Origin: an uncultured Phycisphaeraceae bacterium
GTDB taxonomy: Bacteria > Planctomycetota > Phycisphaerae > Phycisphaerales > UBA1924
Length of the DNA stretch: 38,814 nucleotides
Reading direction: 5' to 3'
Assembly: GCA_964652945.1 (NCBI GenBank)
Contig: CAZZDW010000024.1
Span: forward strand, 1-38,814
The translations under genes were made by a program, and so were the position numbers. The notes beneath the pieces are model-generated. The model made no database searches. It had not been told where the DNA came from and saw only the letters and a program-made list of their open reading frames with translations. Below are positions 1 through 17,160 of the stretch, in pieces (position 1 is the first letter of the stretch; every line of letters starts with the position of its first letter).

Positions 1-1
1 C

Positions 2-53
2 TCATCTTGACCCACAACCACACGACGACAAGATGCGCTTCACGTACCGCTCA
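2..53. repeat. 52-bp direct repeat, copy 1 (tcatcttgacccacaacc..gcgcttcacgtaccgctcac)
   Basis: Near-identical to 1968-2020 (2 mismatches over 52 nt) in the same orientation. The flanks diverge immediately on both sides. Copy 1 abuts the window edge, so the repeat could be longer to the left. Confidence 0.8.
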
Positions 54-215
54 CCGGCCGGCATGCTCGTTGCCGACGAAGAGGCTGTTTTTCCGGTTGA
101 GCACGACCCGCTTCATCTCACGCTCGGACGCATTGTTGTCGATCGGCACGCACCCCACATGTTCGTGCTGGCGTGCGAAGACCGTCAGCGTCTGCCACTG
201 GTTGAGCGTGTAGCA
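54..215 (-). pseudogene. IS66-family transposase (TnpC) C-terminal fragment
   Basis: The minus-strand translation ...ARYCYTLNQWQTLTVF..VPIDNNASEREMKRVVLNRKNSLFVGNEHAGR* matches the conserved IS66 TnpC C-terminal block (..NQWxxLxxF..IDNNxxERxxRxxxxxRKNxLFxGS..). It is cut at its 5' side by the IS481-like element and stops 9 aa after RKNSLF, so it is also truncated at its 3' side. Confidence 0.6.
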
Positions 216-1905
216 GTAGCGGGCGAGCGAAGGATGTAGGCGAATAATGCCTCCGCTCATCATGCTGCAAGCGGAAGTATGAATAAATCAGGATGTCGCC
301 ACGGTTTTCGGGGTTCGCACGCCCAAGGCCGCCATATGCAGGTGGGCCAGGAGATTGTGCGCTCTCTTTACGCGGCTTCTCGGCGTTCTCGAACGTGGAT
401 GACCGGATAGCAGAGCCGTCGGTCGTTGCTCACGTGCCGCCGCTCGAGTTGGATCACCGGTTCGACACCTCCTTTCTGCCTATAGCTCACAGCCTCGGTC
501 TTCAAAGTTCCCGCTTCAACTTCGAGCGGCGTCAGTGTATCATGGGCCGCATGCGGTCGGAAGCGGTTGTGCCATTCCCGGTAGGCGTCGAGTTGCTGTT
601 GCACAACCGCGACGTTGGTGGACAATACCGACTTCGCCGCCCAGGCTTTGATATCGCGGAAGACCCGCTCGACCTTGGCGTTGAGTTGCCAGGTGTGCAC
701 CTGGCAACGAACATGCGTCACACCCATCTTGCTGACGGCGTTACGGAACTCGCGTCGGAACTGGCTGCCGTGGTCGGTCACGATAAACCGCGGCGTTGCA
801 CCACTCTCTTGAATAGCGGCCTCGATCATCGCAGGCAGATCGGCCGTCTTCACTCGTCCTTTGAAAGCTTTCAATGCAACGAGCTTTCGGCTAAATCCGT
901 CGAGCAAGGCCGCGATCTCGACATTCCACCACAAGAGCTTGACCGTGGTGATATCCAGGTGCCACACCTTGTTGGGCTCTTCTGGATGTTGCACATGATC
1001 CGGCGCCTGCGTAACGGCTCGCTCAGGGTGCTTCTTGGTTGGATTTGTCGGGTGTTCCTGAAGGATCCGCCGCACGCTGGTCCTGCTCAGCTTGATACCG
1101 GCACGCGCGATGTGACGAGCGATCGTCCGGCTGCCGAACTCCGGCTCCGGGAACATGCACCGCATCTCGCGGACCAACCAGCGAACGGACTCGTGCGCCT
1201 TGTTCCACGGCGGCCCGCCGAGCAGGTTCTTCGCTCGGAGTTTGTCATCCACGGCGTTCATCCAGTTGCGGATGGTGTTGGGATGCACGCCGAACCGCTC
1301 GGCGGTCTTCTTCGGCGACCACCCGCGCAAACGCATCACCTGCAGAATCTCGGCACGTTCCTCCGGCACGAAGTGCGGCCGCTCCTTCGGTTCTTTGCGG
1401 AGCCGCTGGGATCGGAAGATCGCGAGTTCGCGCTCAAGCAACGCGTTCTCGGCATAGAGCCGGTCCCGCTCGTTCATCAACCGAACGAAGGACGAAGAAT
1501 GGTCGAGCATCCGAGTCCGCGCATCGACGGCGGCACACATGAACAGCGTCGTGATCCGCTCGGCTGCGCGCCATATAGAAGGTTGGGCCACGGTGAAGTC
1601 CCTCAAGCCGCTGAAGCCGTGTCCACGCTGGCTCCGCTCGGCAGGGCCAACCGTATGTTGCAGCATCGCGGCACGAAACGAGCTATCGGACTTTCTCGGC
1701 CGCATTGGACGCCTCCAACGGGGCGCACAAACTCGCTGGCCCACCTGCAAACGGGGCCTGGAGTAGGGAAGAGGCCCCAAAGTCACACCGAGAGGTTCGT
1801 ATCCCGAATCTCTCCCGAGATTCATCCTTGATACGAACCCGGTGAGGTGAATTCGCCGAACGGCGGCCGCGGAGACCATTGCCCGTATCGACGCTCGCCC
1901 TCCGC
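215..1905 (-). mobile_element. IS481/IS3-superfamily insertion sequence, copy A (inverted relative to copy B)
   Basis: About 1.7 kb is alignable end-to-end with the reverse complement of 7462-9185 (~90-95% identical by eye). It contains one long DDE/rve transposase ORF. The boundaries were estimated from where the two copies stop aligning. Confidence 0.75.
368..1540 (-). CDS. DDE transposase (HTH + integrase-core/rve domain), IS481-like
   Basis: HTH segment (WSPKKTAERFGVHPNTIRNWM). DDE core segments are WHLDITTV.., ..FIVTDHGSQFR.., ..QLNAKVERVFRDIK... A single ORF of ~390 aa fits IS481 rather than the two-ORF IS3 arrangement. The start is uncertain: the ORF stays open upstream to 1990, and Met151 (MCAAV, 1540) was chosen here. 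Confidence 0.75.
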   Translation of the reverse strand: MCAAVDARTRMLDHSSSFVRLMNERDRLYAENALLERELAIFRSQRLRKEPKERPHFVPEERAEILQVMRLRGWSPKKTAERFGVHPNTIRNWMNAVDDKLRAKNLLGGPPWNKAHESVRWLVREMRCMFPEPEFGSRTIARHIARAGIKLSRTSVRRILQEHPTNPTKKHPERAVTQAPDHVQHPEEPNKVWHLDITTVKLLWWNVEIAALLDGFSRKLVALKAFKGRVKTADLPAMIEAAIQESGATPRFIVTDHGSQFRREFRNAVSKMGVTHVRCQVHTWQLNAKVERVFRDIKAWAAKSVLSTNVAVVQQQLDAYREWHNRFRPHAAHDTLTPLEVEAGTLKTEAVSYRQKGGVEPVIQLERRHVSNDRRLCYPVIHVRERREAA

Positions 1906-1967
1906 TCCCGCTGCTCACGCAGCAGACGCGACCACCCAGCCGCCGATAACGCCTTCTTGACCATCCA

Positions 1968-2020
1968 TTCATCTTGACCCACAACCTCACGCCGACAAGA
2001 TGCGCTTCACGTACCGCTCA
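1968..2020. repeat. 52-bp direct repeat, copy 2
   Basis: Matches 2-53. Together the two copies bracket the IS481-like copy A, the IS66 tnpC fragment and 63 bp of other sequence. Confidence 0.8.
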
Positions 2021-2274
2021 CTTGCCTTCGCCTCAATTGTGGCTGTTGTCGGTCGGTCGATGGCGGTCGCTTCATCGGTCGATGCTCTTGCGTGCGATTG
2101 ACCGCCAACGCCCAGAATGGTAACCAAAGCCATGCGGCAACAGCCGGCGGCACGGGTTCTATTCATGAGTAGTCTTTCTTGACCGATATCCTTACGCTCG
2201 CCCGCCACTACTCATCAATCACCGTGACCAAGACCGTAGAATTCCCGGCGATGTTCCGATACTTCAGCGGCCTG

Positions 2275-3324
2275 CTATGGCTGCCCCGAATCAATCTCTT
2301 TTCCTCCGAGATCGATCCCACGCAAGCCTCCACGGGTGTAACGGTAATACCCAAATACAGAATCGGTCTCGTGTCCGCTTGCCGTCGGCGGCTCCCACGT
2401 ATCCGGTTTATATGCATACTGGAATCCGATCGGACTCTTCGGATTCCACGGATCCCACCCGCGATTCGTGTCCTTGGTCTGCTTGTACGAGACCGAGCCG
2501 TCGAACATGAGGACGTTCACCTTCGCGTTCGGGATCGCGTAGTAGGTCTCCCGCTTCTCGTGCCGTGCGTGCCCCTCATGCAGGAACACCTTCTGCGATG
2601 GAAAGCCCACCGTGTTCAGCGTTTGCTGAGAGAGCTTCCACTGGACTGTGTTGAACACAAAGTGATCGCCGGTGGAGTTTCGCATGCGTTTATTGTCAGC
2701 AGTCAGAATATTCTTGCTCTGTGAGCCGTCGAGCGCACTGACGGTTACTTCGTACGTCGAAGAAAACGCCCAACGGATGCCCGGGTTTCCTGGCGAGATC
2801 GGGGTTGTCACTGCTGCGAGAGACTTCGCCGGATACGGCGGAGCGCCTCCCGCCATAAAGTTGTTGATATCCCGGGCCCATGTCAGGCGTATTTGATCAG
2901 ACGGACAGGTGTACACCGGCTCGGGCAGACGCGCCGCAAGGTAATCAAAGAGCACGAAATGTCCATACAGGATCTGCGGCAAGAGCATCACATCCTTGTT
3001 CATCGGCAATGACGTCAAACGTCGGAATATGTCCGTAAACTGGGACTGCTGTGCACTCATATCAGAGGACGCGCTTCGAAGGTCTGCAAAGCTGGACTTT
3101 ATCACATCATGCTGTTTCCACGAGTAGTTCCAGATGAAGTCCTTGTGGTCGATGCCGTAACTTGCCGTGGACACGCCGAGCTGCTGCATCTGCGTCATGC
3201 ACAGCGTCGTCCGCGCCACTCTTCGTGCGGAAGCCAGCGCCGGCAGCAGCATCGCGACGAGCAGCCCGATGATGGCGATAACGACCAGCAACTCGATCAG
3301 CGTGAACGCCTTTTTGCCAACCAT
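2275..3324 (-). CDS. DUF1559 / H-X9-DG prepilin-type N-terminal cleavage-methylation domain protein (planctomycete pseudopilin-like)
   Basis: N-terminus MVGKKAFTLIELLVVIAIIGLLVAMLLPA is a class III (prepilin) signal with the invariant Glu. The C-terminal ..HEGHARHEK..NVLMFDGSV.. fits the H-X9-DG motif. ATG start with SD (ggagatt). Sits downstream of the 852-aa gene on the same strand. Confidence 0.85.
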   Translation of the reverse strand: MVGKKAFTLIELLVVIAIIGLLVAMLLPALASARRVARTTLCMTQMQQLGVSTASYGIDHKDFIWNYSWKQHDVIKSSFADLRSASSDMSAQQSQFTDIFRRLTSLPMNKDVMLLPQILYGHFVLFDYLAARLPEPVYTCPSDQIRLTWARDINNFMAGGAPPYPAKSLAAVTTPISPGNPGIRWAFSSTYEVTVSALDGSQSKNILTADNKRMRNSTGDHFVFNTVQWKLSQQTLNTVGFPSQKVFLHEGHARHEKRETYYAIPNAKVNVLMFDGSVSYKQTKDTNRGWDPWNPKSPIGFQYAYKPDTWEPPTASGHETDSVFGYYRYTRGGLRGIDLGGKEIDSGQP

Positions 3325-3344
3325 ACGGAATCTCCAGAACAGTG

Positions 3345-3376
3345 CTCGCGCAATGGAAAGACGTGGGATCTCCCCA
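3345..3376 (-). promoter_or_regulatory. 13-bp-stem intergenic hairpin (ggaaagacgtggg-atctc-cccacgtctttcc)
   Basis: A perfect 13-bp inverted repeat with a 5-nt loop between the stop of the 852-aa gene (3400) and the start of the DUF1559 gene (3324). There is no U-tract after it, so it is more likely an mRNA stabiliser or processing element than an intrinsic terminator. Confidence 0.5.
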
Positions 3377-3399
3377 CGTCTTTCCGAGAAGAGGAAGAA

Positions 3400-5958
3400 T
3401 CAGCAGCCGGCCAGCCACGCGGTGAGGAAGTCGAAGATGTCCTGAACAGTGACGCCGTTGACGCCGTTGAAGTCAGCCGAGGCGTTCCCGGCCAGCCACG
3501 CGGTGAGGAAGTCGAAGATGTCCTGGACGGTCACGCCGTTCACACCGTTGAAGTCCGCCGGGCAGCAGCTGATGTTGCCGCCCTGCTTCAGACGCAGGGT
3601 CCAGGAGTTGACCGCGCCGCCGCCGGATGCCGCGTCACCCGTGGCCACGAGCGTCCAGACGCCCGCGGCGGATTTGCCGTGGAAGTTGGCGCGCAGTCCA
3701 TTGTTGACATTGGCCGATCCCGCGGGGCGGTAGACGCCCGCCGGGATCGGATCGACCCCGAGGTTCGCCGCGTCAAAGAGCGTGGTCGCGCCCGCATCGT
3801 TGAAGGTGTAGACGCCGGCAAGGTCGAGTCCCGCATTGCCCGCCGGGGAGAAGCCGTACCGGCCGCGGTGCGTCAGCGGGACATACATGCCGTCCTTGAC
3901 GAGAGCGAGGCGAACATCGCCCTGCGAACTGTGGCCGATGTCCACTTCCACTTCAACATCTTCCACGGTGAAGGTGTCGGCGATCGTGACGCTCCCGCTG
4001 GTGTAGGGGACAAAGCTGTTGCCGATCTGGTTGTTGCCAAACATGGCGATGGAGCCGCCCGCGTAGCTCGATGTGGTGCTGTTGTGAGAAACGCAGACAC
4101 TGCCGTCGCCGCCGTAGGCGCCGCCGCGTGCCGCACAGTCCTGCTGCGAGGTCAGCAGGCACCCGTCCTGGGTGCAGCAACGACCATTGGCCGAGGGCTC
4201 GACGAGCAGTTCCATCTCCGCGAACCCGTAGTCGCCGTTGTTAGAGGACTGAGCCTGTCGCGAGGCGAACTGGAAGTAGTAGGTCGTGCCGGCGACGACG
4301 TTCCACGTGTCGATGCCGTTGGTGGCTGCCGCACCGTCCGGGATGCCCGATATGGGAGTGATTTGCCCCATGTTCACGCACCGCACCAGTGACGAGGCGC
4401 TGGTGGGACAAACGCCGGGCGCCGATTCGGGGAAGATCGCCAAGCGGCTCCCCAGCGCCACGGGGAAGCTGCGGTTCATGATGGAGGCCTTTCCCGAGAC
4501 CGGGGCGACCCACTTGTACCAGGAATCCAGCGCCATCGGCGAGGTCGCGAAGAACGGGTCCGCCCCGCACCGAAGTGAGGTGAATGGTGCGACCGGCGCG
4601 GTAGCCCGCACATTGTGGAATGTGAACACGCCCGTGCCGCTGATGGGCGTAGCGGTCGCGCAGTCGTCGCCGACGCTGGGCAGGAGCGAGAACTTCACAT
4701 CCATCGGAGTGGGGGGAGACGACGTCGCCGAATCGACATGGACATTGATGAAGTACGTGGTGTTCGCCAGGGTCGGGAAACCAAACCGCTGAATGCCTAG
4801 GAACCCGTAAAATCCGCAGAATGTCGCCGTCGCCGATTCCGGACAGCTGCCGGAGGCCCACACGCCCACCGCCACGGTCTGGGTGCTGAACTCCTCGATA
4901 AGCATGACGCCGGGCTCCGAACCCGAGTCGTAGCGGAACCAGACGCCGTAGTTGGAGCCCGCCGCAACATCGCAGAACCCGCCGTCGATATCATGATTGG
5001 CGCCGGAGTTGTCTACCTGAAACCGTGCGGGCATTGAGGAGATGACAAGGGCGTCGGAACAATCATCGTTGGCCGGCGGCGTGACGTAGTAAAAAATGAT
5101 GTTCATCGGCACCGTGGGAACCGTCGCGGCGTTGTTCTGCACTAGGAAGTAGTAGGTTTTTCCGCTCGTGATGGGAACATTGAACCCGGTGGTGGTGTGA
5201 CAGAAGGTCGGTGATGTGCCGGGGGCAGGACAAGCGGCCGACCCGGTGTCCATCTCCCAGATGCCAACCGCGGTATTCTGTGGCGTACTCTCGCTGACCT
5301 TAAGAAGGCCCGTCAGGGTGCAGTCATACTTGAACCAGACGCCGCATGTGCCGACCCCGCGTGAGGTGGTGGCGCATCCAATATTATGAAGATCGTCTCC
5401 CGCCGTGGTGTTGTCCACGACGTATTCCGTCTCCAGATCAATCACCTGCGCGTCGGCGCATTGGTCGTTTGCCGGGGGCACAACCTGGTAGAACACGATG
5501 ACCATCGGCACAGTCGGAGCCGTCGCCGTATCGGAGAAGACCAGAAAGTAATAGGTCTTCCCGCTCTGCACATTGATGTGAAAAGTATCCGTGGCGGCGC
5601 AGAACGTCGAAGGCCCCCCGGCAGGGCAGGTCGCGCCGACCGTATCCATTTCCCAGATGCCCGCGGCGATGTTCTGTGTAGAGGCTTCCTCGACACGAAG
5701 AACGCCGGTGAAGATCGAGTCGTAGCGAAACCACACCCCCGCCCTCATGCTCGTTTGCGACGCGAGGTTGCAGGCCCCAACGTCAAACGGCTCGTTGGCG
5801 GCCGTTGTATTGTCGACATTGTAAATGTCGCCAAGCGTCACGTTCTGCGCAGTTGCACAGTCGTCGTTCCCAGGCATGGCAAAGACGCCCAGCGGCAACG
5901 CCAATAACCCGAGTAACGTGAGTGCAAAGCAACATTTCTGAGTCAACCAAGAGCTCAT
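3400..5958 (-). CDS. Large secreted multidomain protein: signal peptide, 4x ~135-aa PPC-like domains (P-x-N-D-x-C-x-x-A motif), P-domain-like beta module, 2x dockerin/EF-hand-like repeats at the C-terminus
   Basis: N-terminal signal MSSWLTQKCCFALTLLGLLALPLGVFA. Four internal repeats each begin PANDDCATAQ / PANDQCADAQ / PANDDCSDAL / VGDDCATATP and each contains ..GxWxxYD / WEMDT..GKTYYF... The segment ..DVEVEVDIGHSSQGDVRLALV..AAGVWTLVATGDAASGGGAVNSWTLRL resembles a proprotein-convertase P-domain. The C-terminal DFNGVNGVTVQDIFDFL x2 fits the D-x-N-x-D-G dockerin/EF-hand pattern. No subtilisin catalytic motifs were seen. Confidence 0.6.
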   Translation of the reverse strand: MSSWLTQKCCFALTLLGLLALPLGVFAMPGNDDCATAQNVTLGDIYNVDNTTAANEPFDVGACNLASQTSMRAGVWFRYDSIFTGVLRVEEASTQNIAAGIWEMDTVGATCPAGGPSTFCAATDTFHINVQSGKTYYFLVFSDTATAPTVPMVIVFYQVVPPANDQCADAQVIDLETEYVVDNTTAGDDLHNIGCATTSRGVGTCGVWFKYDCTLTGLLKVSESTPQNTAVGIWEMDTGSAACPAPGTSPTFCHTTTGFNVPITSGKTYYFLVQNNAATVPTVPMNIIFYYVTPPANDDCSDALVISSMPARFQVDNSGANHDIDGGFCDVAAGSNYGVWFRYDSGSEPGVMLIEEFSTQTVAVGVWASGSCPESATATFCGFYGFLGIQRFGFPTLANTTYFINVHVDSATSSPPTPMDVKFSLLPSVGDDCATATPISGTGVFTFHNVRATAPVAPFTSLRCGADPFFATSPMALDSWYKWVAPVSGKASIMNRSFPVALGSRLAIFPESAPGVCPTSASSLVRCVNMGQITPISGIPDGAAATNGIDTWNVVAGTTYYFQFASRQAQSSNNGDYGFAEMELLVEPSANGRCCTQDGCLLTSQQDCAARGGAYGGDGSVCVSHNSTTSSYAGGSIAMFGNNQIGNSFVPYTSGSVTIADTFTVEDVEVEVDIGHSSQGDVRLALVKDGMYVPLTHRGRYGFSPAGNAGLDLAGVYTFNDAGATTLFDAANLGVDPIPAGVYRPAGSANVNNGLRANFHGKSAAGVWTLVATGDAASGGGAVNSWTLRLKQGGNISCCPADFNGVNGVTVQDIFDFLTAWLAGNASADFNGVNGVTVQDIFDFLTAWLAGC
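3411..3572. repeat. Tandem duplication of an 81-bp (27-codon) unit
   Basis: 3411-3491 and 3492-3572 are ~90% identical. They encode the two C-terminal ADFNGVNGVTVQDIFDFLTAWLAG modules of the 852-aa protein. Confidence 0.85.
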
Positions 5959-6083
5959 CGTGGCCTTCCTTTCGTGTTGTGAACGGACTCGGGCTGCGGT
6001 TACGCCTCAAGAACACGGCATCACCCGACCGCTAGAACCAAAGCCTACACCGTCCCTGCCGCTCGCACAAGATATCTGTGAAA

Positions 6084-6099
6084 AAATCCTGTAGGATTT
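6084..6099. promoter_or_regulatory. Inverted repeat aaatcc-tgta-ggattt (operator-like) in a divergent intergenic region
   Basis: 6-bp perfect arms with a 4-nt spacer, about 40 bp upstream of the 6135 start codon and between divergent genes. A TACAAT-like -10 element lies at ~6122-6127. Confidence 0.35.
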
Positions 6100-6134
6100 A
6101 TCGACGGCGTGTAAATTGAGATTACAATAGGTGT

Positions 6135-7376
6135 ATGAGCAAGATGGCCCTTACAGAAACGGTCGGCGCCTTGGGTTATCGAGACTCAAACAAATTGCGT
6201 ACGTCCATATCGAACAGCGCCGACGGCCACGCCGATCAAGCGACGCAGGCGATGGCGAGGTTGTGCAGCGCGCTCGGCGCCCTGCTGGAGAGTCTGCCTT
6301 CGCATCCCACCAGGGCGACGGACGTTGCGAGCGCGATCGGCGTGAATCCTCAGTTGGCGTGGCAGGTTTTTCGAATGGCCGGGGCCGCGAACGCGCTCGC
6401 CGCCGTGCAGTTTCTGCCCACGAGCAACCAGCTCGCACGGGTGATCGAGGCGGCCCGCGCTTCAGGCGCAAAGCCCGGCGTCGTCAAGCGCGCCAAGGAG
6501 GCAAGCGATGCGATCGACGCCTTCCTCATCGAGCACGAGATGGATCGACGCGAGTTCGAATCGCTGATCGGCTCGCTGGCGGCAGGTGGCGCCGAGCAGG
6601 TGGACATCAAGCACCGGCGGGCGTTGCACCGCAGCCACGCGCACTACTACGGGATACAGTCAAAAACCGTCTATTCCTGCTCCATCTTGCACCCCGGCGG
6701 GGAGGGAGAGAGCTACCGCCAGGTCTCTCTGCTCGGGTATGTCAACTTGCACGCGCTCAGGCCCAACGTGTCGATGACACTCTTCCAGACGGCGGCCGCG
6801 TGCGACCCGGATGGTGCTCGGGTGCCCACGGCGAGCACTCCCTGCTTGCTTGAGGGATTCGATGCTGGTCGGAGTGTGGAACTCGTGCATGAAGGGGAGG
6901 AAGACGGCCGCGTGTTCACCCGTATTGTCTTTCCCGGCATCGGACGCGGGGCGGCGGTTTCGTTCCTGACCATGCAGACCCATAAGGATGGGAACACTGC
7001 GCAAGATCCTCATCCGTGGATAACCGTCCAGCTCACGGTGCCCGCCGAGGCGATCGTGTTGGACATCCTCGTGCCGACGGCGTGGGGAACATCCGGGCAG
7101 GCCGTTGTCAGAACCTATGCCCGACGCGCCCAGCCGATGAAGGTTCTCGAATGCCGATCCGTGGACATCGTCCCGTGCAATGAACAAGCCACCTGCACGC
7201 GCGAGGTAACAGAACTTTCGCCAACCGCCGATGCGCCCGGCGTTCGCGAGGCCATCGGTCGCATGCTTCGAAAAAAGGGATGGGGGCAAACCAAGTTTGA
7301 CCTTTACCGCTGCCGCGTGGCATTTCCGGTGCTCTACTCGGCGATTCATTTGAGAGTGTTGCCGCAGGAAGGATAA
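6135..7376 (+). CDS. Hypothetical protein (413 aa), no recognisable domain
   Basis: ATG start with SD (aggtg). A long ORF with ordinary codon composition and an alpha-rich N-terminus. No motif was recognised. Confidence 0.5.
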   Translation: MSKMALTETVGALGYRDSNKLRTSISNSADGHADQATQAMARLCSALGALLESLPSHPTRATDVASAIGVNPQLAWQVFRMAGAANALAAVQFLPTSNQLARVIEAARASGAKPGVVKRAKEASDAIDAFLIEHEMDRREFESLIGSLAAGGAEQVDIKHRRALHRSHAHYYGIQSKTVYSCSILHPGGEGESYRQVSLLGYVNLHALRPNVSMTLFQTAAACDPDGARVPTASTPCLLEGFDAGRSVELVHEGEEDGRVFTRIVFPGIGRGAAVSFLTMQTHKDGNTAQDPHPWITVQLTVPAEAIVLDILVPTAWGTSGQAVVRTYARRAQPMKVLECRSVDIVPCNEQATCTREVTELSPTADAPGVREAIGRMLRKKGWGQTKFDLYRCRVAFPVLYSAIHLRVLPQEG

Positions 7377-7461
7377 CCGGATGCGTGAGGGCATGGTATG
7401 TAAGGGAATCTGCTGTAACCGGCCAGCTCCGAATTTCTGTGAAAAACAGCAACTGTGTCAT

Positions 7462-9185
7462 GGAGCGGAGGGCGAGCGTCGATACGGGTATTGGTCTCCG
7501 CGGCCGCGTTTCGGCCGATTCACCTCATCGTGTTCGTATCAAGGATGACACTCGGGAGAGATTCGGGATACGAACCCCTCGGTGTGACTTTGGGGCATCT
7601 CCCCCCACTCCCGGCCCCGTTTGCAGGTGGGCTAGCGAGTTTGTGCGCCCCTTTGGCGGTGTCCAATGCGGCCGAGAAGGTCCGATAGCTCGTTTCGTGC
7701 CGCGATGCTGCAACATACGGTTGGCCCTGCCGAGCGAAGCCAGCGTCGACACGGCTTCCGCGGCTTGAGGGACTTCACCGTGGCCAAACCTTCTATATGG
7801 CGCGCAGCCGAGCGGATTACGACGCTGTTCATGTGTGCCGCTGTGGATGCGCGGGCTCGGATGCTCGACCACTCCTCGGCCTTCGTTCGGTTGATGAACG
7901 AACGCGACCGGCTCTACGCCGAGAATGCGTTGCTGGAGCGGGAACTCGCGATCTATCGCTCCCAGCGCTTGCGCAAGGAGCCGAAGCAGCGTCCGCACTT
8001 TGTGCCGGAGGAACGTGCCGAGATTTTGCAGGTGATGCGTTTGCGCGGCTGGTCGCCGAAGAAAACCGCGGAGCGCTTTGTCGTTCACGCCAAGACCATC
8101 CGCAACTGGATGAACGCCGTTGACGACAAACTTCGAGCCAAGAACCTGCTCGGCGGGCCGCCGTGGAATAAGGCGCACGAGTCCGTCCGCTGGTTGGTGC
8201 GCGAGATGAGAACCATGTTCCCGGAACCGGAGTTCGGCAGCCGGACGATCGCTCGCCACATCGCACGAGCCGGCATCAAGCTGAGTCGAACAAGTGTGCG
8301 ACGTATGCTGCAAGAAGAACCGCCGAGCCCAACGAAGAAGCACCCTGAGCGGGCCGTGACACAGGCACCCAATCATGTGCGTCATCCAGAAGAGCCCAAC
8401 AAGGTGTGGCACTTGGATATCACCACGGTCAAGCTCTTGTGGTGGAATATCGAGATCGCGGCTCTGCTCGATGGATTCACCCGGAAGATCGTCGCGTTGA
8501 AGGCTTTCAAAGGACGAGTGAAGACGGCCGACCTGACCGCGATGATCGATGCGGCTGTTCGCGAGAGCGGTGGGAGGGGGGCGCCACGGTTCATCGTGAC
8601 CGACCACGGCAGTCAGTTCCGACGTGAGTTCCGCAGCGCTGTCAGCAAGATGGGTGTGACGCATGTCCGCTGCCAGGTGCACACCTGGCAACTCAACGCG
8701 AAGGTCGAGCGAGTATTCCGCGACATAAAAACTTGGGCGGCCAAGTCGGTACTGTCCACCAACGTCGCGGTTGTGCAAAAACAACTCGACGCCTACCGGG
8801 AATGGCATAACCGATTCCGACCGCATGCCGCCCATGATACACTGACGCCGCTGGAAGCAGAAGCGAGAACTTCGAAGATCGAGACAGTCAGCTACACGCA
8901 GAAAGGAGGTGTTGAACCAGTCATCAAACTCGAGCGGCGGCACGTGGGAGACGACCTGCGGCTCTGCTACCCGGTCATCCACGTGCAAGAACGCCGCCGA
9001 GAAGCCGCATAAAGGGAGCGCACAAACTCCTGGCCCACCTGCATATGGCGGCCTTGAGCGTGCGAATCCCGAAAAGCGCGGCGACATCTTGATTGATTCT
9101 CCTTCCGCTTGCAGCCATGATGAGCGGAAGGCATCATTCGTCTACACCCTTCGCTCGCCCGCTACTCCCGCTACTCGCCACTCTC
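7462..9185 (+). mobile_element. IS481/IS3-superfamily insertion sequence, copy B
   Basis: Aligns with the reverse complement of copy A. Its outer end (9135-9185) supplies the last 17 codons and the stop of the 9134-10030 gene. Confidence 0.75.
7831..9012 (+). CDS. DDE transposase, IS481-like (intact paralogue of 368-1540)
   Basis: About 93-95% aa identity to the copy A transposase, with the same HTH and rve motifs. Differences include FVVHAKTIRNW vs FGVHPNTIRNW and ESGGRGAPRF vs ESGATPRF. Start chosen at the equivalent Met (MCAAV). The ORF is open upstream to 7666. Confidence 0.75.
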   Translation: MCAAVDARARMLDHSSAFVRLMNERDRLYAENALLERELAIYRSQRLRKEPKQRPHFVPEERAEILQVMRLRGWSPKKTAERFVVHAKTIRNWMNAVDDKLRAKNLLGGPPWNKAHESVRWLVREMRTMFPEPEFGSRTIARHIARAGIKLSRTSVRRMLQEEPPSPTKKHPERAVTQAPNHVRHPEEPNKVWHLDITTVKLLWWNIEIAALLDGFTRKIVALKAFKGRVKTADLTAMIDAAVRESGGRGAPRFIVTDHGSQFRREFRSAVSKMGVTHVRCQVHTWQLNAKVERVFRDIKTWAAKSVLSTNVAVVQKQLDAYREWHNRFRPHAAHDTLTPLEAEARTSKIETVSYTQKGGVEPVIKLERRHVGDDLRLCYPVIHVQERRREAA

Positions 9186-10030
9186 GCTATTCGGCCATTT
9201 TCTATACTGCGGTATGTAAGCCACATACATGACGCCGAAAGAGCAAAAACCAAATTAATCGCCGCTGTTTGACCCAGATCCCCACCTGGCGATAGCGGGG
9301 CTGTTGCATTCAAACTTATTATTAGATCAGAAAAGAATGGCGCGAAAGCAAAAAAAACTGAAATAAGCACGAGACATGACACAAACTTGCGATACTTCAT
9401 CATAGCTTGCGGCCCATGAGAAATCACACAAATAAAGGTTCGCCATGAAGAAATTGAATGAACTATAAGCACTAAACCAACTGCTCCGGTCAAGAGCGGT
9501 GCAAGTTTAGTAGATATTCGACTATGCAACCCAAATTCGCGAACTGCTACCCATGACCATAAAACAATTCCGGTTAGCGTAAAAAATATTAACCATCCCT
9601 TTATTCGTTTAGATTCGCCATGACAGATAGTCCAAATGCGACTAAGCAATCGACTTCCATTTGCTAAATATACGACCAGCACAGCAAGGTAAACGCCTAC
9701 AGCAACAAATCCTATGGATGCTACATCTTGTAGCCGTGTCCACAACTCTTGCGGTCTGGAAAAACCATTGTGATCTAAGACGAGAGTTACAATATGAATG
9801 CAAAGCGCGATAAAAGCAAAACTAATAGGAGCCACACCAGCGAAAAACACAATTAACGCAAGTCGACGGATTGCACTCGCTTGCTCTTGATTAATAGTAT
9901 CTTCTAATGGCGGCATGACTACACACCGCCATCCACCTTCGTGTCCGCATTCTGGACAAGCCGTTGTTGGTGGCAATCCTGTAAGATCATAACCACATTG
10001 ACGACAAAGATATACTGATGCCGGTTTCAT
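9134..10030 (-). CDS. Zinc-ribbon + polytopic membrane protein in a low-GC islet; candidate RHS immunity protein with its 3' end replaced by IS sequence
   Basis: The N-terminus C-R-Q-C-G-Y-D-L-T-G..C-P-E-C-G is a double CxxC zinc ribbon, followed by about 6 hydrophobic helices. GC is ~42% vs ~65% background. The ATG lies 8 nt after the RHS stop codon. The last 17 aa (..RVASSGSSGRAKGVDE*) are encoded by the terminal repeat of IS copy B. Confidence 0.6.
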   Translation of the reverse strand: MKPASVYLCRQCGYDLTGLPPTTACPECGHEGGWRCVVMPPLEDTINQEQASAIRRLALIVFFAGVAPISFAFIALCIHIVTLVLDHNGFSRPQELWTRLQDVASIGFVAVGVYLAVLVVYLANGSRLLSRIWTICHGESKRIKGWLIFFTLTGIVLWSWVAVREFGLHSRISTKLAPLLTGAVGLVLIVHSISSWRTFICVISHGPQAMMKYRKFVSCLVLISVFFAFAPFFSDLIISLNATAPLSPGGDLGQTAAINLVFALSASCMWLTYRSIENGRIARVASSGSSGRAKGVDE

Positions 10031-10038
10031 GCTTTATT

Positions 10039-13000
10039 CTACTCAGAACATGTGGACGAAGACGGCGTTGGCGTGGCCGGTTGGGACGGTGCGGCCGGTG
10101 GAAAGATTCCTGGGACGATCGTTCTCCATCCTGGCGGACACGCTTTACCAAAGACCATGTATTGATGTTGAGCATGACAACTCGCCTTGCATTGAGCTAT
10201 GGTGATTCCTGCTCTAACTTGTTGCAATCGATAGTCAGCTTCACAAATGGCAGTTGCTGAAGTATACCCAATGCTACAAAGGAGACGGCATGCGCTCGCT
10301 CCCGTTTTGCCTGGAGCCGGGCAAATAGCTATGCAAGCACTCCGCGTGAAGGCTGCAGCCGCATTACATGCGGCATATCGAGCATCGATTGCAGCATTGA
10401 CTGTTACAGGACAAGCTGCTATGCACTTCTGTGCCTCAACTGTATCTTCGCACAGACTATGTGCTGGATACAACATTGGACTACCGCCCGGTACTCTGGG
10501 CGCGATCGTGCCAGGTGCCGGAATTGGCGTGAAAGGTGGAGTCGGTGGAGTCGCGGGAACAATATACCCAGGACCTGTCGGACTTACTGGTGGCCATGGA
10601 CTAGCGAGACCGGTCGAATCAGTCGCAGCTAATGGGTTTGATCTCAAATACGCATACAAGCTCATCCCATCCACATATCCTAGCGGGTCTCTTCTGAGCC
10701 AACTTCCGAGGCGGTCGTGGTAGACGCGGTTTCGGCAGTGCCACAGCCACGTGAGCTGCATCGACGGCGTGATGTACGCCACGGCGTCCGACTCGTACCC
10801 GGCGTAGCCCTTGCGGTTGTTCACCGTGTCGTCGGTCAGGAAGCCCCAGCCCTTGGGCCGATGCGTGCTCTGCGCGTCGGCGTACACGATCGACCAATCG
10901 CTGAACTCGACCGTGCCGTCGAGGTCGATGTCGCCGCGGACGTCGTAGAACGACGTGTCGAACCACTCGCGGACGATGATCGGGTCGGAGCTGGGATCGT
11001 TCAGGCCCGTCGCGTTCACGTCGCCCAGCGGGATGCAGTACGGCGTGCCGTACGCCGAGTACCGGATCTGCTCCACCTGCCCACCCACGCTGCTCAACAG
11101 CGCCACCACGTCCGCACGCCAGTTCTGGCAGTAGTACCGGCGTTCTTCTAATGTCCCGTCGGCCGCCGAGAGCCACCCCGAGTTCGCGTCACGGTCGCGC
11201 AGGATCGCCAGGTCGATGTAGCTGCCCGATCCACCCATGCCCGCGTGGTGGTACGCGAACAGCTCCTTGGGGTCCGTGTCGGCATTGCGGAAGCTCGCCA
11301 CCATACGCCACCGGTCATCGTAGGCGAAGTAGTACCACGGGTCCGAGCCGTCCGTGTCGGCGTCGTAATCCGCGTCGTAGTGCCACGCGATCCGGTGGCC
11401 CAGGCCGTTGTACCGGTACTCGATCACCACGTTGCCCGTCCCCTCGTGCAGCACGCGGCACAGACGACCGAACGCGTCATTGATATACAGGTGCCGGACG
11501 CCGTCGAAGAACATGTCGCCGCGCTTGTTGTGGCTCGGAGTCCCCGCACCGATCGCCGTCATCTCGTTCGCGTTGTTGTGCGACCGCGAGCGGCTGTGCT
11601 CCGGGTTGATGAACACCGTGTCGATGAAGTCCCCGTCGCCGTTGATATCCAGCCGCTCGAAAGCCCAGTTGCCCGTCTGCGTGAGCGCGGGGTTGCCGGA
11701 GGCGTCCATCCAGCGATGGTCGCGGGCGCGGGTGGCGATGCTCCCGCCGGAGATCTCGCCCTGGTCGTCGCGGAGGAGCCGATCCAGATCGTCGATCGTG
11801 TACAGCGCGTCGAACACGTGCGGGCCGTGGACCGACGTGGTGGACTTGCGCTGGATGTTGTCGATCGTGTGCGTGATGTTCGAGTTGCGGTCGTAGCTGA
11901 TATCCGTATGGTAGAAGTCGACGTCGGTCGCGAGGTCCTTGGTCCACCGGCTGGAGATCGTGCGGTTGAACCCGTCGAGCCGGTTGTAGACGCCGGCAGC
12001 GGCGCCCGCCGCGTACAAGCTGGTGTAGATATCCGCCTCGGGCAGGTCGGTCCGTGCGGCCCAGTCGACGCCCGCGTATGTGTACTCACTGACAATCACC
12101 GGCGACCCGGTACCAATACGGACCTGGCTCACGCGGCTGGCGGCGTCGTCGTAGAGATGACCGGCCGAAGAAAGATACTGGTAATCCAGGACCTGCTTGG
12201 CCGTGCCGCTGGAGATGTGGTAGAAGTTCTGACCGGTTCGGCGGACCGCCTGGACACCCGTCGCGGGGGCCGACTTGGCGTAGGTAAACTCGACCTTGTA
12301 ATCGTCGGGCGTGCCCGCGCCGACCGCCGAGTTCACGTCCTGGCGGAAGGTCTCGGTGTTCCCCCAGTCGTCGTAGGTGTACGCGACCTCGTCGGTGATA
12401 GAGCCCGACCCGACGGTCGCGTTATCCCACTGGGTGACCTTCTGCACAAAGCCGCGGCTGTCATAGGTGGTGCTGATCCGCTTCACGGCGGCGTTAAAGC
12501 TGTCATAGCCGCTTGACGGGATCGTCGTCGCCCGGCGATGGGTGAGCCGGCCCGCCTTGTCGTAATCCTGCGCGATGACCACGCCGGACTGGTCGGTCTT
12601 GATGATCTCCTGGCCGAGCGTGTTGTAACCGAAGAGCACGTCGCGGTCCGTGTCCGCCTGCATGGCCGTCTGCGGCGGGTAGACCACGCGCGAGAGCATC
12701 CGGTTCGAGTTGAGCTTCGAGCCGTTGCTCGTCGTGGCCGCGTGCTCGTACGTGGTGACCTGGTCGTCGCTGTCCTCGGTCCCATCGCCGTCGATGTCGA
12801 CCCATTCTTTGGACTTCAGGCCGTTGGTGTATTCGTAGCGCGTGTAAATATCATGGTCGCGGTTCGCGGTAGCCAGCGAGCCGTTCTCGTAGTTGGCGAT
12901 TTGGGTGATGGTTCGAAGCGCCCGGTCGTGCGCGACACGCGTCTTTGCGCCCGCCGTCCCGGTCGGATCAGACCCCTTCGTCGGCAACTCGGTCTCGATG

Positions 13001-16000
13001 GGTACGCCGTAGTCGCTATACGTCGTCGACGTGACAATCACGCTGCCCGTGGACCGGTCCAACGGCGTGGATGGACGCGTGAACGCGGTGCTCGAAGTCG
13101 TGCCGTCGCCAACGATCCCGAAGGTGCCGTACTGCACCGTTATCTCCGGGCGATCGAGTTCGTCGTAGTACATCGCAGTAATTTGTACACGGCCGTTGAC
13201 ATCGGTTGCGGTCAGCGTGGTCGGGTCGCCAGCACCCATGCTCTCGCTGTCGGCGTCCAGCTCGCCTGTTGTGGATTCATCGCCCGCGTGCCGCTGGATG
13301 CTGACGGTGAAGAGCGCGTTGCCGGTCTCGCTCTCGTAGATCGTTTGATTTTCGGCGAGCACGATATCGCCGCTCACGTCGGTTTGACCGCTGGCGTACA
13401 CCTCGCCATACGTGTCCTCGTTGTCGTCGGTCTTCGCGAGCACAAACTGGTGCGTCGGCCGCCCCAGGCTGTCGTACCGCGTCTTGGTGAGCTGCTGCCC
13501 TTGCGTCTTGATCACACGGCCAACCGGGTCGTACCAGTTCTGCGAGACAAGCGTATCGTCATCCGAGCCATCTGAGTCATCGATCTTGTGGGCGACGTTC
13601 TTCCAGGCTCTGCCCCGTTCGTCGTAGGACGTCTCTGAAAGGCTGAGCCTGTTCGTCGCGACCGAACTCGGATCACTCGATGCGCTCAATCCCGCAGCGC
13701 TGGAGTACGTTCCCATGACCGTCATGCGGTTCATGTTGTCGTACTTGCTGAGCACATGAGGTATCGCAGGCGACACCCCGTCCGTCGGGTTCGTCTGCAG
13801 GATCATCCGACCACGGTAGTCATAGGCGTAAGTCGTTTCTCGCTGGTCCGTGCTCATGCCGTCCCATGCGCCGTCCGGATCGGTCATGACACTGGTGAGA
13901 TGGCTGTTCTTCCCCGAGACCAGCGTCGTCGTCGATTGCGACTGCCCGTCGTACCGGCGACGCTCGACACGCACCATGTCGCCCCCCATCCCATTGATTC
14001 CCTCGCCGTTCGCCTCGCTCCAGGCGGTATCGTCCGTGCCCGTCCATAGCTCCGAAATCCTGCCGATCGCGTCGTACACCGTCCGGTCAATGGTCCCTGT
14101 CGGATCCTCAACGCGAACTACGCGACCCATACCATCATGATCGTAGCTCGTCACGTCGCAGACGACCGAGGGGCTTCCCCCGCCGTTGTCCTGCCAGTTG
14201 CCGCTCGTGCGGATCGTGTGATACGAGCGGGTTTCAAGGAGACGAGTCCCGGAACTGTCATAGATCGACACCTTCGGTCGATAGACCAGTTCTCGGTTCG
14301 TACCCCTGAACGCCACGTCAAGGGCGTCAATCGGGTCGGACAAGTTATGATCAATCCAATCCGCTTTGGCAAGCGTGCCTGTTGAAATCCCCGCATCCGG
14401 GATCGCCAACGTAGCGCTGAACTCAATCTTTCCAGCTGGATTGATAACCTGATACGAAACGGGTCCATAGTACGTCGTGCCGTCTACCCGGGGAAAGTGC
14501 AACCGGACCGCCATGTGCGCTTGATCAAAGAAGGACAGAATGCTATAAAAATTTTCTGTAACGCGGCCATTGGGCAGCGTGGTCTTGGTTAGCCGCCCTT
14601 GTGAGTCGTACATGTATTCGGTTACCAGGTGTTGCCCACCGTTGGCGGATGGACTACCGAGAAATGTTGAGACCTCACCCGAGGCGAAGTCGCCAGAATA
14701 AGATGCGGGATCGGCGTCATCAATACGCTTGATCAACAGGCGGTTGGCGTCGTAGAGTGTATACGTGATAACGCCCTCTTCGCTGATGGAGAAAGCAACG
14801 GTCCCATCTTGACGATAGTGATTGAATCGAGAAGTTGCCGAGTCGGGACCATTATTTCCCGCCGAGACTTCCGCGTTAATCGTTTCGATCGTCTTGGGCA
14901 CTATCGAGAGCGGCAACGATCCTCCCCAGAAATCTCGATCATATGCTGTAACGTAATATTTTGAGGTATCGTAGTACAAGTGCGACTCAGCATGAAATAA
15001 CCGGTCTTCCACTGCGAGGGGTATGTACACAAAGGTGCTTCCAATATTAAGTATTGGCTCCTCGTACTCCGTATCCGTGAGATAATTCAGATCGGGCGAA
15101 TCCGGATATGGCGACTTATCGCCACTTGCAATCCGTGGACCATATATGAGTCCACCGCCTACGTCCGGGTACACGGCGAAACCACTCGACCCGCTCGTGA
15201 CAACACCTGTGGAATGGTTGTAGCCGGTATTGACTTCTGGGCTGTGCTTTTCGACAACCGCACCATACAAACTCTCACGTTCGACATATTCTACCCATCG
15301 CGTTGAAACACTTGTGGCTGGATCTGTCGTCGTTGTCACCTTCGAAAGCGACTGACCTGCCTCGTCAAAGTACTGCGTGATCCACAACCCATCAGGACGC
15401 TGCATTATCGTCCGGAACTTCGCCTCGGTGTCATAGAAACCGCTGCTATTGGAGTACCCCGGCGCTCCCTCGTACCTAAATGCAAATGTCCCATTCGCCC
15501 CTCCCCCCGTGCAACCGCACTGACCATTAAAGAGTCCTGTCGCCACCTTCTTCGGGTCGGCGGCGCCGGAGTCATAGGTCAGAAACGCCGCCGTGTACGG
15601 CTTCAGGTCTGTATCACTGACAGTATCGAGCGATGTCGAGTCTATTGCATCGCTGAATCCATACTGATGCGTTCCGCCCGGCTCGACGACTGCTTTGAGC
15701 TGCCCGGCGTACCCGCTCCCGGATGCATAATACCTGTAGTAGGTCTTTCTCCATTCAAGTTGTGTATCATTTGTGACAAGGAACGCAGTCGCCATCTTGA
15801 GTTGTCCGGGTAATCCGTCATCGTCATCATCTACTAACACGGACGATTGGTAATACCAATACAAAACGGCCGCAACAGTGGCGACGCCGGTTGGCGGATC
15901 AGATGGATTATGCCAATCTCCTCCGGTCTTGTTACTTGCCACCACGCCAACCAGCCGTTGTACACCGTCGATGCTTGAGTAAGTATATTCGTAGTACCTT

Positions 16001-16854: not shown

Positions 16855-17160
16855 GCTTGTTTCTCGCAGAATGAAGGAATTCTGCTTCAATCGACTTTCT
16901 TCAATCGACGCACACGTGAATACTTGCAGAGAAGCGACGCTACCTATCGCGTACAACGAGGGGCAACCTGCGCATCCTCTCATCAGGTCCATCATATGTC
17001 AAATGTTCATTGCAGTTAGTGGATAAATTGTGCAGAATTTATTTTATATGCGATACTTGCAATCCCCATCAAAGCACGGTATACAAGGGGTGATACGTAA
17101 GATGAGTTTGCTCGCATAATGTCGTATTGATCCTGAATATACCTTTTTCAAGGGGTTTTC

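What the first reader, a model, noticed from the sequence alone, without database searches (positions are those of the whole stretch)
215..9185. Composite-transposon-like arrangement: two diverged inverted IS481-like copies bracketing a 5.5-kb secretion-related cargo
Copies A (215-1905, minus) and B (7462-9185, plus) are the same IS (~1.7 kb, single HTH+rve transposase) in inverted orientation. Between them lie a DUF1559 pseudopilin-like gene, an 852-aa multi-PPC/dockerin secreted protein and a 413-aa hypothetical gene.

Both transposase ORFs are intact. The copies differ by several percent, so this is not a fresh duplication. The unit may still move as a composite transposon or mediate inversion of the cargo. 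The two outer ends sit in an IS66 remnant and in the RHS immunity gene, i.e. in a region that is already accessory.
Basis: seen in the sequence. Interest (0 to 1): 0.55.

Follow-up and report, generated by a model that had tools for sequence, protein, structure and literature searches.

The report
Two diverged insertion sequences, not a transposon
Two old, roughly 11%-diverged copies of a Phycisphaerae-specific insertion sequence sit in inverted orientation around a native gene cluster, and nothing shows that the 9-kb block ever moved as one transposon, so this is ordinary mobile-element clutter.

Summary
Copy A (215-1908, transposase on the minus strand) and copy B (7462-9166, plus strand) are inverted copies of one kind of 1.7-kb insertion sequence (IS). 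Both have open transposase ORFs, intact DD(35)E residues and identical terminal tips.

They are 89.2% identical, not "several percent" apart. dS is 0.44 and dN/dS is 0.105, so these are two long-separated lineages.

The composite-transposon reading is not supported:
- No target-site duplication exists in any pairing: A alone, B alone, outer-outer, or inversion-swapped.
- The two outer flanks are unrelated DNA: an IS66 transposase fragment and the 3' end of an ORFan next to an RHS gene.
- The core of the "cargo" (852-aa secreted protein and 413-aa protein, divergently transcribed) is conserved in four relatives' contigs with no transposase and no IS ends.
- Copy A sits between two non-adjacent, colinear parts of an IS66 element, which points to an adjacent deletion.

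"IS481-like" is too specific. The transposase scores below NCBIfam cut-offs for both IS3 and IS481. It belongs to an uncurated rve-DDE lineage found almost only in Phycisphaerae genomes assembled from metagenomes (MAGs).

Side observations: relatives often lie at the 3' end of RHS or polymorphic-toxin loci, and copies cluster in direct orientation.

The parts
2..59 (-). Terminal segment of a second IS66-like element, which runs off the contig start. It is a 93% direct repeat of 1969-2026 and cuts the IS66 transposase fragment next to it.
   Evidence: Direct repeat D2. It abuts the IS66 TnpC fragment at model position 356/387. Calling it an IS66 end is inference.
54..212 (-). C-terminal fragment of an IS66-family transposase (TnpC). 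This is the outer left flank of IS copy A.
   Evidence: Pfam DDE_Tnp_IS66 positions 235-282/284, E 2.5e-12. NCBIfam transpos_IS66 positions 309-356/387.
215..1908 (-). IS copy A, 1694 nt. The IRR tip is at 215 (outer end) and the IRL tip at 1908 (inner end). The transposase ORF is 368-1705 (445 aa), or 368-1591 if it starts at GTG codon 39.
   Evidence: DD(35)E residues D251, D311, E346 and K353 are invariant in alignment A4.
1909..2026 (-). 5' end of the IS66-like element: the terminal repeat plus the first ~19 codons of its first ORF. This is the inner flank of copy A. It is colinear with 54-212, but the IS66 interior is missing.
   Evidence: Direct repeat D2. Sequence read. The junction with the pilin side was confirmed in Logan contigs L008/L009. 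Assignment as an IS66 end is inferred.
2027..2166 (-). N-terminal fragment (signal-peptide-like, MNRTRAAGCCRMALVTILGVGG...) of a gene cut by the IS66-like end.
   Evidence: Translation. Sequence.
2186..2211 (-). Solo IRR-like sequence (AGTAGTGGCGGGCGAGCGTAAGGATA) with no IS body attached.
   Evidence: 3 mismatches, 0.02 expected by chance. Present unchanged in Logan contigs L008/L009.
2275..3324 (-). Prepilin-type N-terminal methylation-domain protein, 349 aa.
   Evidence: Pfam N_methyl 26.8 bits; TIGR02532; the DUF1559 hit is sub-threshold.
3400..5958 (-). 852-aa secreted multi-domain protein with a GC-type dockerin. It is native: orthologues of 54-59% identity occur in relatives.
6135..7376 (+). 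413-aa protein of unknown family, transcribed divergently from the 852-aa gene. The pair is conserved in four relatives' contigs without any IS.
7462..9166 (+). IS copy B, 1705 nt. The IRL tip is at 7462 (inner end) and the IRR tip at 9166 (outer end). The transposase ORF is 7666-9012 (448 aa), or 7780-9012 if it starts at GTG codon 39.
   Evidence: The inner junction is identical in five independent Logan assemblies.
9134..10030 (-). 298-aa ORFan with low GC (0.44), in the position of an RHS immunity gene. Its last 11 codons and stop codon lie inside IS B.
   Evidence: GC 0.44, GC3 0.33. (no homologue among 5.8 billion proteins). Coordinates.
10039..16995 (-). RHS-repeat protein, 2318 aa, convergent with the IS B transposase.
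   Evidence: Pfam RHS_repeat and DUF6531.

Best explanation
The block is two independent insertions of two long-diverged lineages of one insertion-sequence type. The IS is 1.69-1.70 kb and encodes a single rve DD(35)E transposase. Its terminal repeats are GGAGCGGAGGGCGAGCG (left) and AGTAGCGGGCGAGCG (right).

The insertions lie on either side of a native chromosomal gene cluster, in the IS-rich accessory end of a Phycisphaerae MAG contig. Copy A landed in an IS66-like element, and the interior of that IS66 was then lost next to it. Adjacent deletion, or recombination between IS copies, is inferred. Copy B sits at the 3' end of the small ORF downstream of an RHS toxin gene, a position that relatives of this IS occupy repeatedly.

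Shown: the copies, their tips, their divergence, the absence of TSDs, the conservation of the cargo elsewhere, and the identity of the flanks.

Inferred: the order of events, and that each copy is or recently was transposition-competent by the copy-out/paste-in route typical of IS3/IS481-type DDE enzymes.
For: Divergence:
- The copies are 89.2% identical. dS is 0.44, dN is 0.046 and dN/dS is 0.105. The split is therefore old and both lineages stayed under selection for transposase function.
- The non-coding first 300 nt are 92% identical, while synonymous sites differ by 33%. This suggests the cis-acting ends are also constrained.

No shared insertion history:
- No direct repeat of 4 nt or more at consistent offsets was found for A alone, B alone, outer-outer or inversion-swapped pairings.
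- The outer flanks are unrelated. The left flank is IS66 TnpC model positions 309-356. The right flank is a low-GC ORFan.
- Copy A's two flanks are colinear pieces of an IS66-like element with the interior missing.

Cargo is native:
- The 852-aa/413-aa divergent pair recurs at 54-64% aa identity in L006, L007, L089 and L090. These contigs have no transposase and no IS-end motif, and the pair has different neighbours in each, for example ilvD-ilvC-ilvB.

The IS is a real family:
- 59 loci were found, nearly all in Phycisphaerae MAGs.
- Elements are 1.62-1.67 kb with conserved tips.

Assembly support:
- The inner junctions are reproduced in independent Logan assemblies.
Against: - TSDs could not be found in 16 relatives either. 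Their absence here is therefore weak evidence by itself; the family's TSD length is unknown and old copies may have lost them.
- The outer tips of both copies are intact and identical over 19 nt, and both transposases are intact. Mobilisation of the whole block is not biochemically excluded.
- The relatives with the IS-free cargo pair are distant (about 60% aa). They show the pair is native to the clade, not what this exact locus looked like before insertion.
- The pseudopilin gene is only N-terminally similar to its counterpart in L006.
- The outer junctions rest on the MAG contig alone.
Confidence: 0.8

Rival explanations
1. It is, or once was, a true composite transposon. The two IS copies and the 5.5-kb cargo moved here as one unit using the two outer IRR tips.
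For: The geometry is right: inverted copies, intact and identical 19-nt outer tips, and two intact transposases.
Against: - No outer TSD.
- The outer flanks are unrelated sequences.
- The cargo pair is native and IS-free in four relatives' contigs.
- dS of 0.44 between the arms is far more than in known composite transposons (own knowledge: the IS arms of Tn5 and Tn10 differ by a few percent at most).
- Copy A's own flanks are both IS66 pieces, so A inserted into IS66 on its own.
Confidence: 0.04
2. The present orientation results from an inversion of the 1909-7461 segment by recombination between the two IS copies. The segment may still flip, which would explain why neither copy has matching flanks.
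For: - Inverted repeats of 1.7 kb contain 16 identical runs of 25 nt or more, the longest 57 nt.
- Neither copy has its own TSD.
- In eight other contigs with two or more family copies, neighbouring copies are always in direct orientation, so the window is the odd one out.
Against: - The inversion-swapped TSD test is also negative.
- Copy A's two flanks are colinear IS66 pieces on the same strand, which a simple inversion through A would have separated.
- 11% divergence strongly depresses homologous recombination (established knowledge).
- No alternative junction was seen, although short unitigs could not reveal one.
Confidence: 0.1
3. The arrangement is an assembly artefact of a metagenome-assembled contig, with a chimeric join through repeated IS sequence.
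For: The window is a whole 38,814-nt MAG contig that starts inside a repeat. The outer junctions were not independently confirmed.
Against: - Both inner junctions are identical in independent Logan assemblies of several runs.
- The longest identical run between A and B is 57 nt, shorter than typical final assembly k-mers.
- The copies keep distinct, copy-specific substitutions along their full length.
Confidence: 0.04

Closest known systems
IS3 family insertion sequences (e.g. IS3, IS911, IS150)
   Same: - rve-type DD(35)E transposase: D251, D311 and E346 with spacing 60/35, and K353 seven residues after E.
- A coiled-coil-like stretch and an HTH lie upstream of the catalytic core.
- Length of about 1.7 kb.
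- Best NCBIfam hit: NF033516, 135.6/130.9 bits.
   Different: - Below the NF033516 cut-off of 160.
- One continuous ORF with no -1 frameshift between orfA and orfB.
- Tips are GGAGCGG / AGTAGCGG rather than TG...CA.
- No 3-5-bp TSD detected.
IS481 family (e.g. IS481; ISRe46 in TnRErm46, PMC6794481)
   Same: - Single-ORF rve transposase.
- NF033577 aligns over nearly its full length, positions 2-282/284.
- Some IS481 members carry cargo inside one pair of IRs as unit transposons (PMC6794481).
   Different: - Scores of 131/117 bits against a cut-off of 224.
- The element is about 0.4-0.7 kb longer than typical members, and its tips do not start with TGT (own recollection of ISfinder's description).
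- Here the cargo lies between two separate IS copies, not inside one element.
Classical composite transposons (Tn5, Tn10, Tn9)
   Same: Two copies of one IS type, in inverted orientation, flank a few kb of non-IS genes. The outer ends are intact.
   Different: - No TSD around the unit.
- The arms are 11% diverged, with dS 0.44.
- The cargo is a native, conserved gene pair.
- The outer flanks are unrelated.
H-rpt (ISAs1-family) elements downstream of E. coli Rhs cores (own knowledge, not checked here)
   Same: An IS sits just beyond the variable 3' end or small downstream ORF of an RHS gene. This is seen for copy B and for relatives L032, L034 and L080-L087.
   Different: The transposase family is unrelated (rve here). 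The association holds for only about 4-5 of about 27 lineages examined; 20 other loci have unrelated neighbours.

Membership tests
Composite (compound) transposon | Two copies of the same IS flank the cargo | tested here: met
   Inverted copies at 215-1908 and 7462-9166, 89.2% identical.
Composite (compound) transposon | Intact terminal repeats at both outer extremities and at least one functional-looking transposase | tested here: met
   Outer IRR tips are identical over 19 nt. Both ORFs are open with DDE residues intact.
Composite (compound) transposon | One target-site duplication brackets the whole unit | tested here: not met
   No direct repeat of 4 nt or more within +-10 nt of 214/215 and 9166/9167.
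Composite (compound) transposon | The outer flanks are two halves of one target; the unit is absent or located elsewhere in relatives | tested here: not met
   The left flank is an IS66 TnpC fragment and the right flank is a low-GC ORFan next to RHS. The cargo pair is found without any IS in L006, L007, L089 and L090.
IS481 family | Transposase reaches the NCBIfam NF033577 equivalog cut-off (224 bits) | tested here: not met
   131.2 bits (A) and 116.9 bits (B).
IS481 family | Single transposase ORF with an rve DDE domain and no frameshift | tested here: met
   One open frame of 445/448 aa with rve + rve_3.
IS481 family | Length of about 1-1.3 kb, IRs starting 5'-TGT, TSD of 4-15 bp (ISfinder description, recalled from memory) | tested here: not met
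   Length is 1694/1705 nt. Tips are GGAGCGG / AGTAGCGG. No TSD.
IS3 family | Transposase reaches the NCBIfam NF033516 cut-off (160 bits) | tested here: not met
   135.6 and 130.9 bits.
IS3 family | orfA/orfB joined by a programmed -1 frameshift | tested here: not met
   A single uninterrupted ORF in both copies and in most relatives.
IS3 family | DD(35)E catalytic triad with K/R seven residues after E | tested here: met
   D251, D311, E346 and K353 are invariant in a 12-sequence alignment.
IS3 family | 5'-TG...CA-3' termini and a 3-5-bp TSD | tested here: inconclusive
   A and B lack TG tips. One relative lineage (L013/L020) starts with TGCAA. No consistent TSD in 16 relatives.
ISfinder-named IS (any family) | BLAST match to a curated ISfinder entry | not testable with these tools
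   ISfinder is not available here. NCBI names relatives only 'DDE-type integrase/transposase/recombinase'.

The most novel reading that the evidence does not exclude
This Phycisphaerae IS lineage preferentially colonises the 3' end of RHS / polymorphic-toxin loci and takes part in turnover of toxin-immunity cassettes. It can even supply a promoter, leader and start codon to orphan toxin modules.

Support:
- Copy B and relatives in three other lineages abut the small ORF downstream of an RHS gene, in the same convergent orientation.
- In L094/L091 a solo left end plus a 236-nt leader, the ATG and three codons are fused in frame to a PT-HINT toxin C-terminus with a small downstream ORF. A full IS copy follows.

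Against: 20 other loci have unrelated neighbours. The pattern may only reflect tolerance of insertions in accessory DNA.
Probability: 0.15. Interest if true: 0.45.

Novelty: new member of a known kind. Interest (0 to 1): 0.17.

Why it matters
It matters little for the question asked. The block is not a new mobile unit carrying secretion genes. It is a native gene cluster that happens to lie between two old IS insertions in an IS- and RHS-rich accessory zone.

The useful by-products are descriptive:
- The ends, size and host range of an uncurated rve-DDE IS lineage of Phycisphaerae that current IS3 and IS481 models do not capture.
- A pointer that this lineage recurs next to polymorphic-toxin loci and clusters in direct orientation. 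Both would be worth a proper survey in complete genomes.

Tried and rejected
- **TSD search in the window:** all four pairings, offsets +-10 nt, lengths 4-12, with one mismatch allowed from 8 nt. Only trivial 4-mers at inconsistent offsets turned up.
- **TSD search in 16 relatives,** anchored on the conserved tips. There was no consistent offset or length. A 6-nt match in L045 and a 6/7 match in L018 are within chance.
- **Exact scan of JGI metagenomes** for the 27-nt IRL found no hit. A degenerate family pattern gave 10 loci and no younger copies useful for TSDs.
- **Exact-protein look-ups** of the 413-aa (own start codon), 445-aa and 298-aa products were not on record. The 410-aa version and the pilin were found.
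- **Source genome:** it is not among the GTDB species representatives. The best transposase hit there is 63% identical, so other copies in the same genome could not be examined.
- **Long antisense ORFs** across both transposases (293-1831 plus, 7525-9087 minus) were rejected as genes. They lie in the in-register antisense frame. They have no Pfam or NCBIfam hit. Their translations are only 75% identical, against 90% for the sense protein. The one oddity is zero TTA/CTA/TCA codons where about 4.2 were expected.
- **Rfam scan** of 1-10200 at E<=1 found nothing.
- **Homologues of the 298-aa ORF:** none, so whether IS B truncates it cannot be decided.
- **General RHS association:** the largest downstream ORFs of 20 other loci are unrelated (glycosidases, kinases, efflux proteins, sulfatase and others).
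Full report
**Observation.** The window is a complete 38,814-nt NCBI MAG contig (P0001, the copy A transposase, is 100% identical and its longest contig is 38,814 nt). The repeat finder reports four contiguous inverted-repeat blocks that join 215-1908 to 7462-9166. A global alignment gives 1511 matches, 182 mismatches and 13 gap columns, or 89.2% identity. Homology stops sharply at 1908 and 7462 and at 215 and 9166.

Both transposase frames are open: 368-1705 on the minus strand (445 aa) and 7666-9012 on the plus strand (448 aa). They are 90% identical. Both carry rve + rve_3. HTH_23 and HTH_32 pass the Pfam cut-offs only in copy A; in B, HTH_23 is sub-threshold and HTH_32 is not reported. The catalytic residues D251, D311 and E346, plus K353, are invariant in a 12-member alignment.

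The true start may be the GTG at codon 39. Three results point that way:
- Codon-periodic conservation across 18 copies begins only around IS position 300-350.
- Relatives are mostly 404-411 aa long.
- tblastn matches start at residue ~43.

However, in L094 an ATG at the equivalent of the upstream start is used in a fusion. The start codon therefore stays uncertain.

**Ends.** The inner ends of both copies carry the identical 27-mer GGAGCGGAGGGCGAGCGTCGATACGGG (IRL). The outer ends carry the identical 19-mer AGTAGCGGGCGAGCGAAGG (IRR). Neither is expected by chance. The two tips are imperfect inverted repeats of each other, sharing AGCGG..GCGAGCG. A third, solo IRR-like sequence lies at 2186-2211.

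**What kind of IS.** NCBIfam gives IS3 at 135.6/130.9 bits (cut-off 160) and IS481 at 131.2/116.9 bits (cut-off 224). Neither family model is met.

The nearest proteins outside this contig are only 64% identical. They come from Phycisphaerales/Planctomycetota MAGs, where NCBI names them just "DDE-type integrase/transposase/recombinase". A scan of GTDB species representatives found 59 loci, almost all in Phycisphaerae.

Pairwise BLAST among these loci defines elements of 1.62-1.67 kb with sharp boundaries. Their tips are conserved: RAGCGG(W)GGGCGA on the left and AGTAGCGGRCGAGC on the right. This is a genuine but uncurated IS lineage of the IS3/IS481 (rve DDE) superfamily. "IS481-like" is acceptable only as a loose description.

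**Age of the two copies.** Nei-Gojobori estimates give dS = 0.44, dN = 0.046 and dN/dS = 0.105 over 445 codons. The first 300 non-coding nucleotides are 92% identical, although a third of synonymous sites differ. The two copies are therefore long-separated lineages, and both the transposase and the cis-acting ends stayed under constraint. This does not fit two arms that have sat together at one locus since a single duplication. By ISfinder's naming rules as I recall them, the copies would count as different ISs.

**Tests of the composite-transposon idea.**
1. **Target-site duplications.** A search of +-10 nt around every boundary found nothing beyond trivial 4-mers at inconsistent offsets. It covered lengths of 4-12 nt and the pairings A alone, B alone, outer-outer, inner-inner and both inversion-swapped pairings.
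2. **Flanks.** The sequence left of A (54-212, minus strand) is the C-terminal part of an IS66 transposase: Pfam DDE_Tnp_IS66 positions 235-282/284 and NF033517 positions 309-356/387. The sequence right of B is a 298-aa, GC 0.44 ORFan followed by a 2318-aa RHS protein. These are not two halves of one target.
3. **Copy A's own flanks.** The inner flank (1909-2026) is the end of a repeated element. Its last 58 nt recur at 2-59, and it begins an ORF on the minus strand. It is colinear with the IS66 fragment at 54-212, but the IS66 interior is missing. The simplest reading is that A inserted into an IS66-like element and an adjacent deletion, or recombination between IS copies, removed the interior. 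This is an inference. A second IS66-like end (2-59) cuts the TnpC fragment and coincides with the contig end. That IS66-like element had itself cut a signal-peptide gene (2027-2166).
4. **Cargo.** The 413-aa protein has homologues of 62-67% identity. On their contigs (L006 of 65.9 kb, L007, L089, L090) it is again divergently paired with the orthologue of the 852-aa secreted protein (54-59% identity). In L006 an N-methyl (prepilin-type) gene lies downstream of the secreted-protein gene. None of these contigs has a transposase hit or an IS-end motif. The neighbours differ between contigs: ilvD-ilvC-ilvB-ilvN-ilvE in L006/L007 and a response regulator in L089. The core of the "cargo" is thus a native, vertically conserved gene pair.
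5. **Composition.** The cargo genes have GC 0.56-0.63. This is a little below the 0.66-0.69 of genes beyond 18 kb, but far from the 0.44 of the ORFan.

**Assembly check.** Five Logan assemblies from different runs reproduce the 413-aa-gene to IS B junction exactly. Two others reproduce the stretch from the pilin gene through the solo IRR-like sequence and the gene fragment to the IS66 end. The longest identical run between A and B is 57 nt, so a chimeric join is unlikely. The outer junctions were not independently confirmed.

**Mechanism.** The enzyme is an rve DD(35)E transposase. By analogy with IS3/IS481-type elements, each copy would move by copy-out/paste-in through an IRL-IRR junction. 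This is established knowledge for those families and is only inferred here. The whole block would have to use two IRR tips. That is not excluded, because the tips are identical, but nothing indicates it has happened. Homeologous recombination between the arms could invert the 5.5-kb segment: 16 identical runs of 25 nt or more exist. The swapped-TSD test is negative, however, and 11% divergence makes such recombination rare.

**Side observations.**
1. **Toxin-locus association.** Copy B's IRR abuts the small ORF downstream of an RHS gene, convergent with it. The same layout occurs for relatives in three other lineages: L032, L034 and the L080-L087 group. In L032 the IS ends at 3198, the minus-strand ORF stops at 3204, and the RHS core matches at E = 3.6e-66. 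In L094/L091 a solo IRL with a 236-nt leader, the ATG and three codons is fused in frame to a PT-HINT toxin C-terminus plus a small ORF, followed by a full IS. Twenty other loci have unrelated neighbours, so this is an enrichment and not a rule.
2. **Clustering.** In eight contigs with two or more family copies, the copies lie 2-110 kb apart and always in direct orientation. The window's inverted pair is the exception.
3. **Tip duplications.** Partial duplications of an IS tip lie just outside the end in winA, winB, L012, L019 and L024. This hints at insertion next to end-like sequences.
4. **Antisense ORFs.** The 512/520-aa antisense ORFs are shadow ORFs.

**Verdict.** The repeat observation is confirmed. 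The composite-transposon interpretation is not supported, and the IS481 assignment is not met. What is there is ordinary: two independent, old insertions of an uncurated Phycisphaerae IS lineage around native genes, in an IS66- and RHS-containing accessory region.

Noticed in passing
window 7462-16995; L032:1548-6017; L034:3385-7851; L080-L087: Relatives of this IS (48-55% aa identity) repeatedly sit with their IRR end against the small ORF downstream of an RHS gene, convergent with it, exactly as copy B does. This holds for 4 of about 27 lineages examined; 20 other loci have unrelated neighbours.
   Followed up: partly
L094:8945-12100 (same in L091): A solo left end, a 236-nt IS leader, the transposase ATG and three codons are fused in frame to a PT-HINT pretoxin domain with a toxin C-terminus. 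A 141-aa ORF and then a complete IS copy follow. The IS appears to supply the expression signals for an orphan toxin module.
   Followed up: partly
Loci: JAVJSB010000001.1, JAUILU010000001.1, JBCDIT010000012.1, OZ244206.1, RHLH01000001.1, JAJDDO010000024.1, JBGSIX010000266.1, JBCBNT010000033.1: Diverged copies of the family cluster within 2-110 kb of each other, even on 3.3-3.4-Mb chromosomes. In every one of these eight contigs the copies are in direct orientation. The window's inverted pair is the only exception seen.
   Followed up: no
window 206-214, 9167-9176, 1909-1917; L012, L019, L024 flanks: Short partial duplicates of an IS tip lie immediately outside the end, for example GAGTAGCGGG|AGTAGCGGG at B and GTGTAGC|AGTAGCGG at A. 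This suggests insertion next to end-like sequences, or remnants of earlier copies.
   Followed up: partly
window 2186-2211 (minus strand): A solo IRR-like 26-mer (AGTAGTGGCGGGCGAGCGTAAGGATA) lies between the pilin gene and the truncated signal-peptide gene, with no IS body. It is present unchanged in independent Logan contigs.
   Followed up: partly
window 293-1831 (+) and 7525-9087 (-): Antisense ORFs of 512 and 520 aa span both transposase genes, and similar open frames occur in most relatives. They are in the in-register antisense frame. The sense genes have zero TTA/CTA/TCA codons (4.2 expected). The antisense translations are only 75% identical and match no family, so these are most likely shadow ORFs.
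   Followed up: yes
window 1-214 and 1909-2026: There is a nest of IS66-like elements. One cut a signal-peptide gene. Copy A replaced its interior. A second IS66-like end (2-59) cuts its TnpC fragment at model position 356/387 and coincides with the contig start.
   Followed up: partly
window 9134-10030 (minus strand): The 298-aa ORF in the RHS-immunity position has GC 0.44 (GC3 0.33) in a roughly 0.6-0.7 GC contig. It has no homologue among 5.8 billion clustered proteins. Its stop codon lies inside IS B.
   Followed up: yes
window 7561/7562; L001-L005 ends: All five Logan contigs from different runs stop at exactly the same base, 100 nt inside IS B. The run shared with copy A there is only about 26 nt. 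This may indicate a population polymorphism or a further B-like copy in those samples.
   Followed up: no
window 3407-3560: A tandem 81-nt repeat (92% identical) encodes the duplicated GC-type dockerin motif at the C-terminus of the 852-aa protein. The Logan contigs break there.
   Followed up: no
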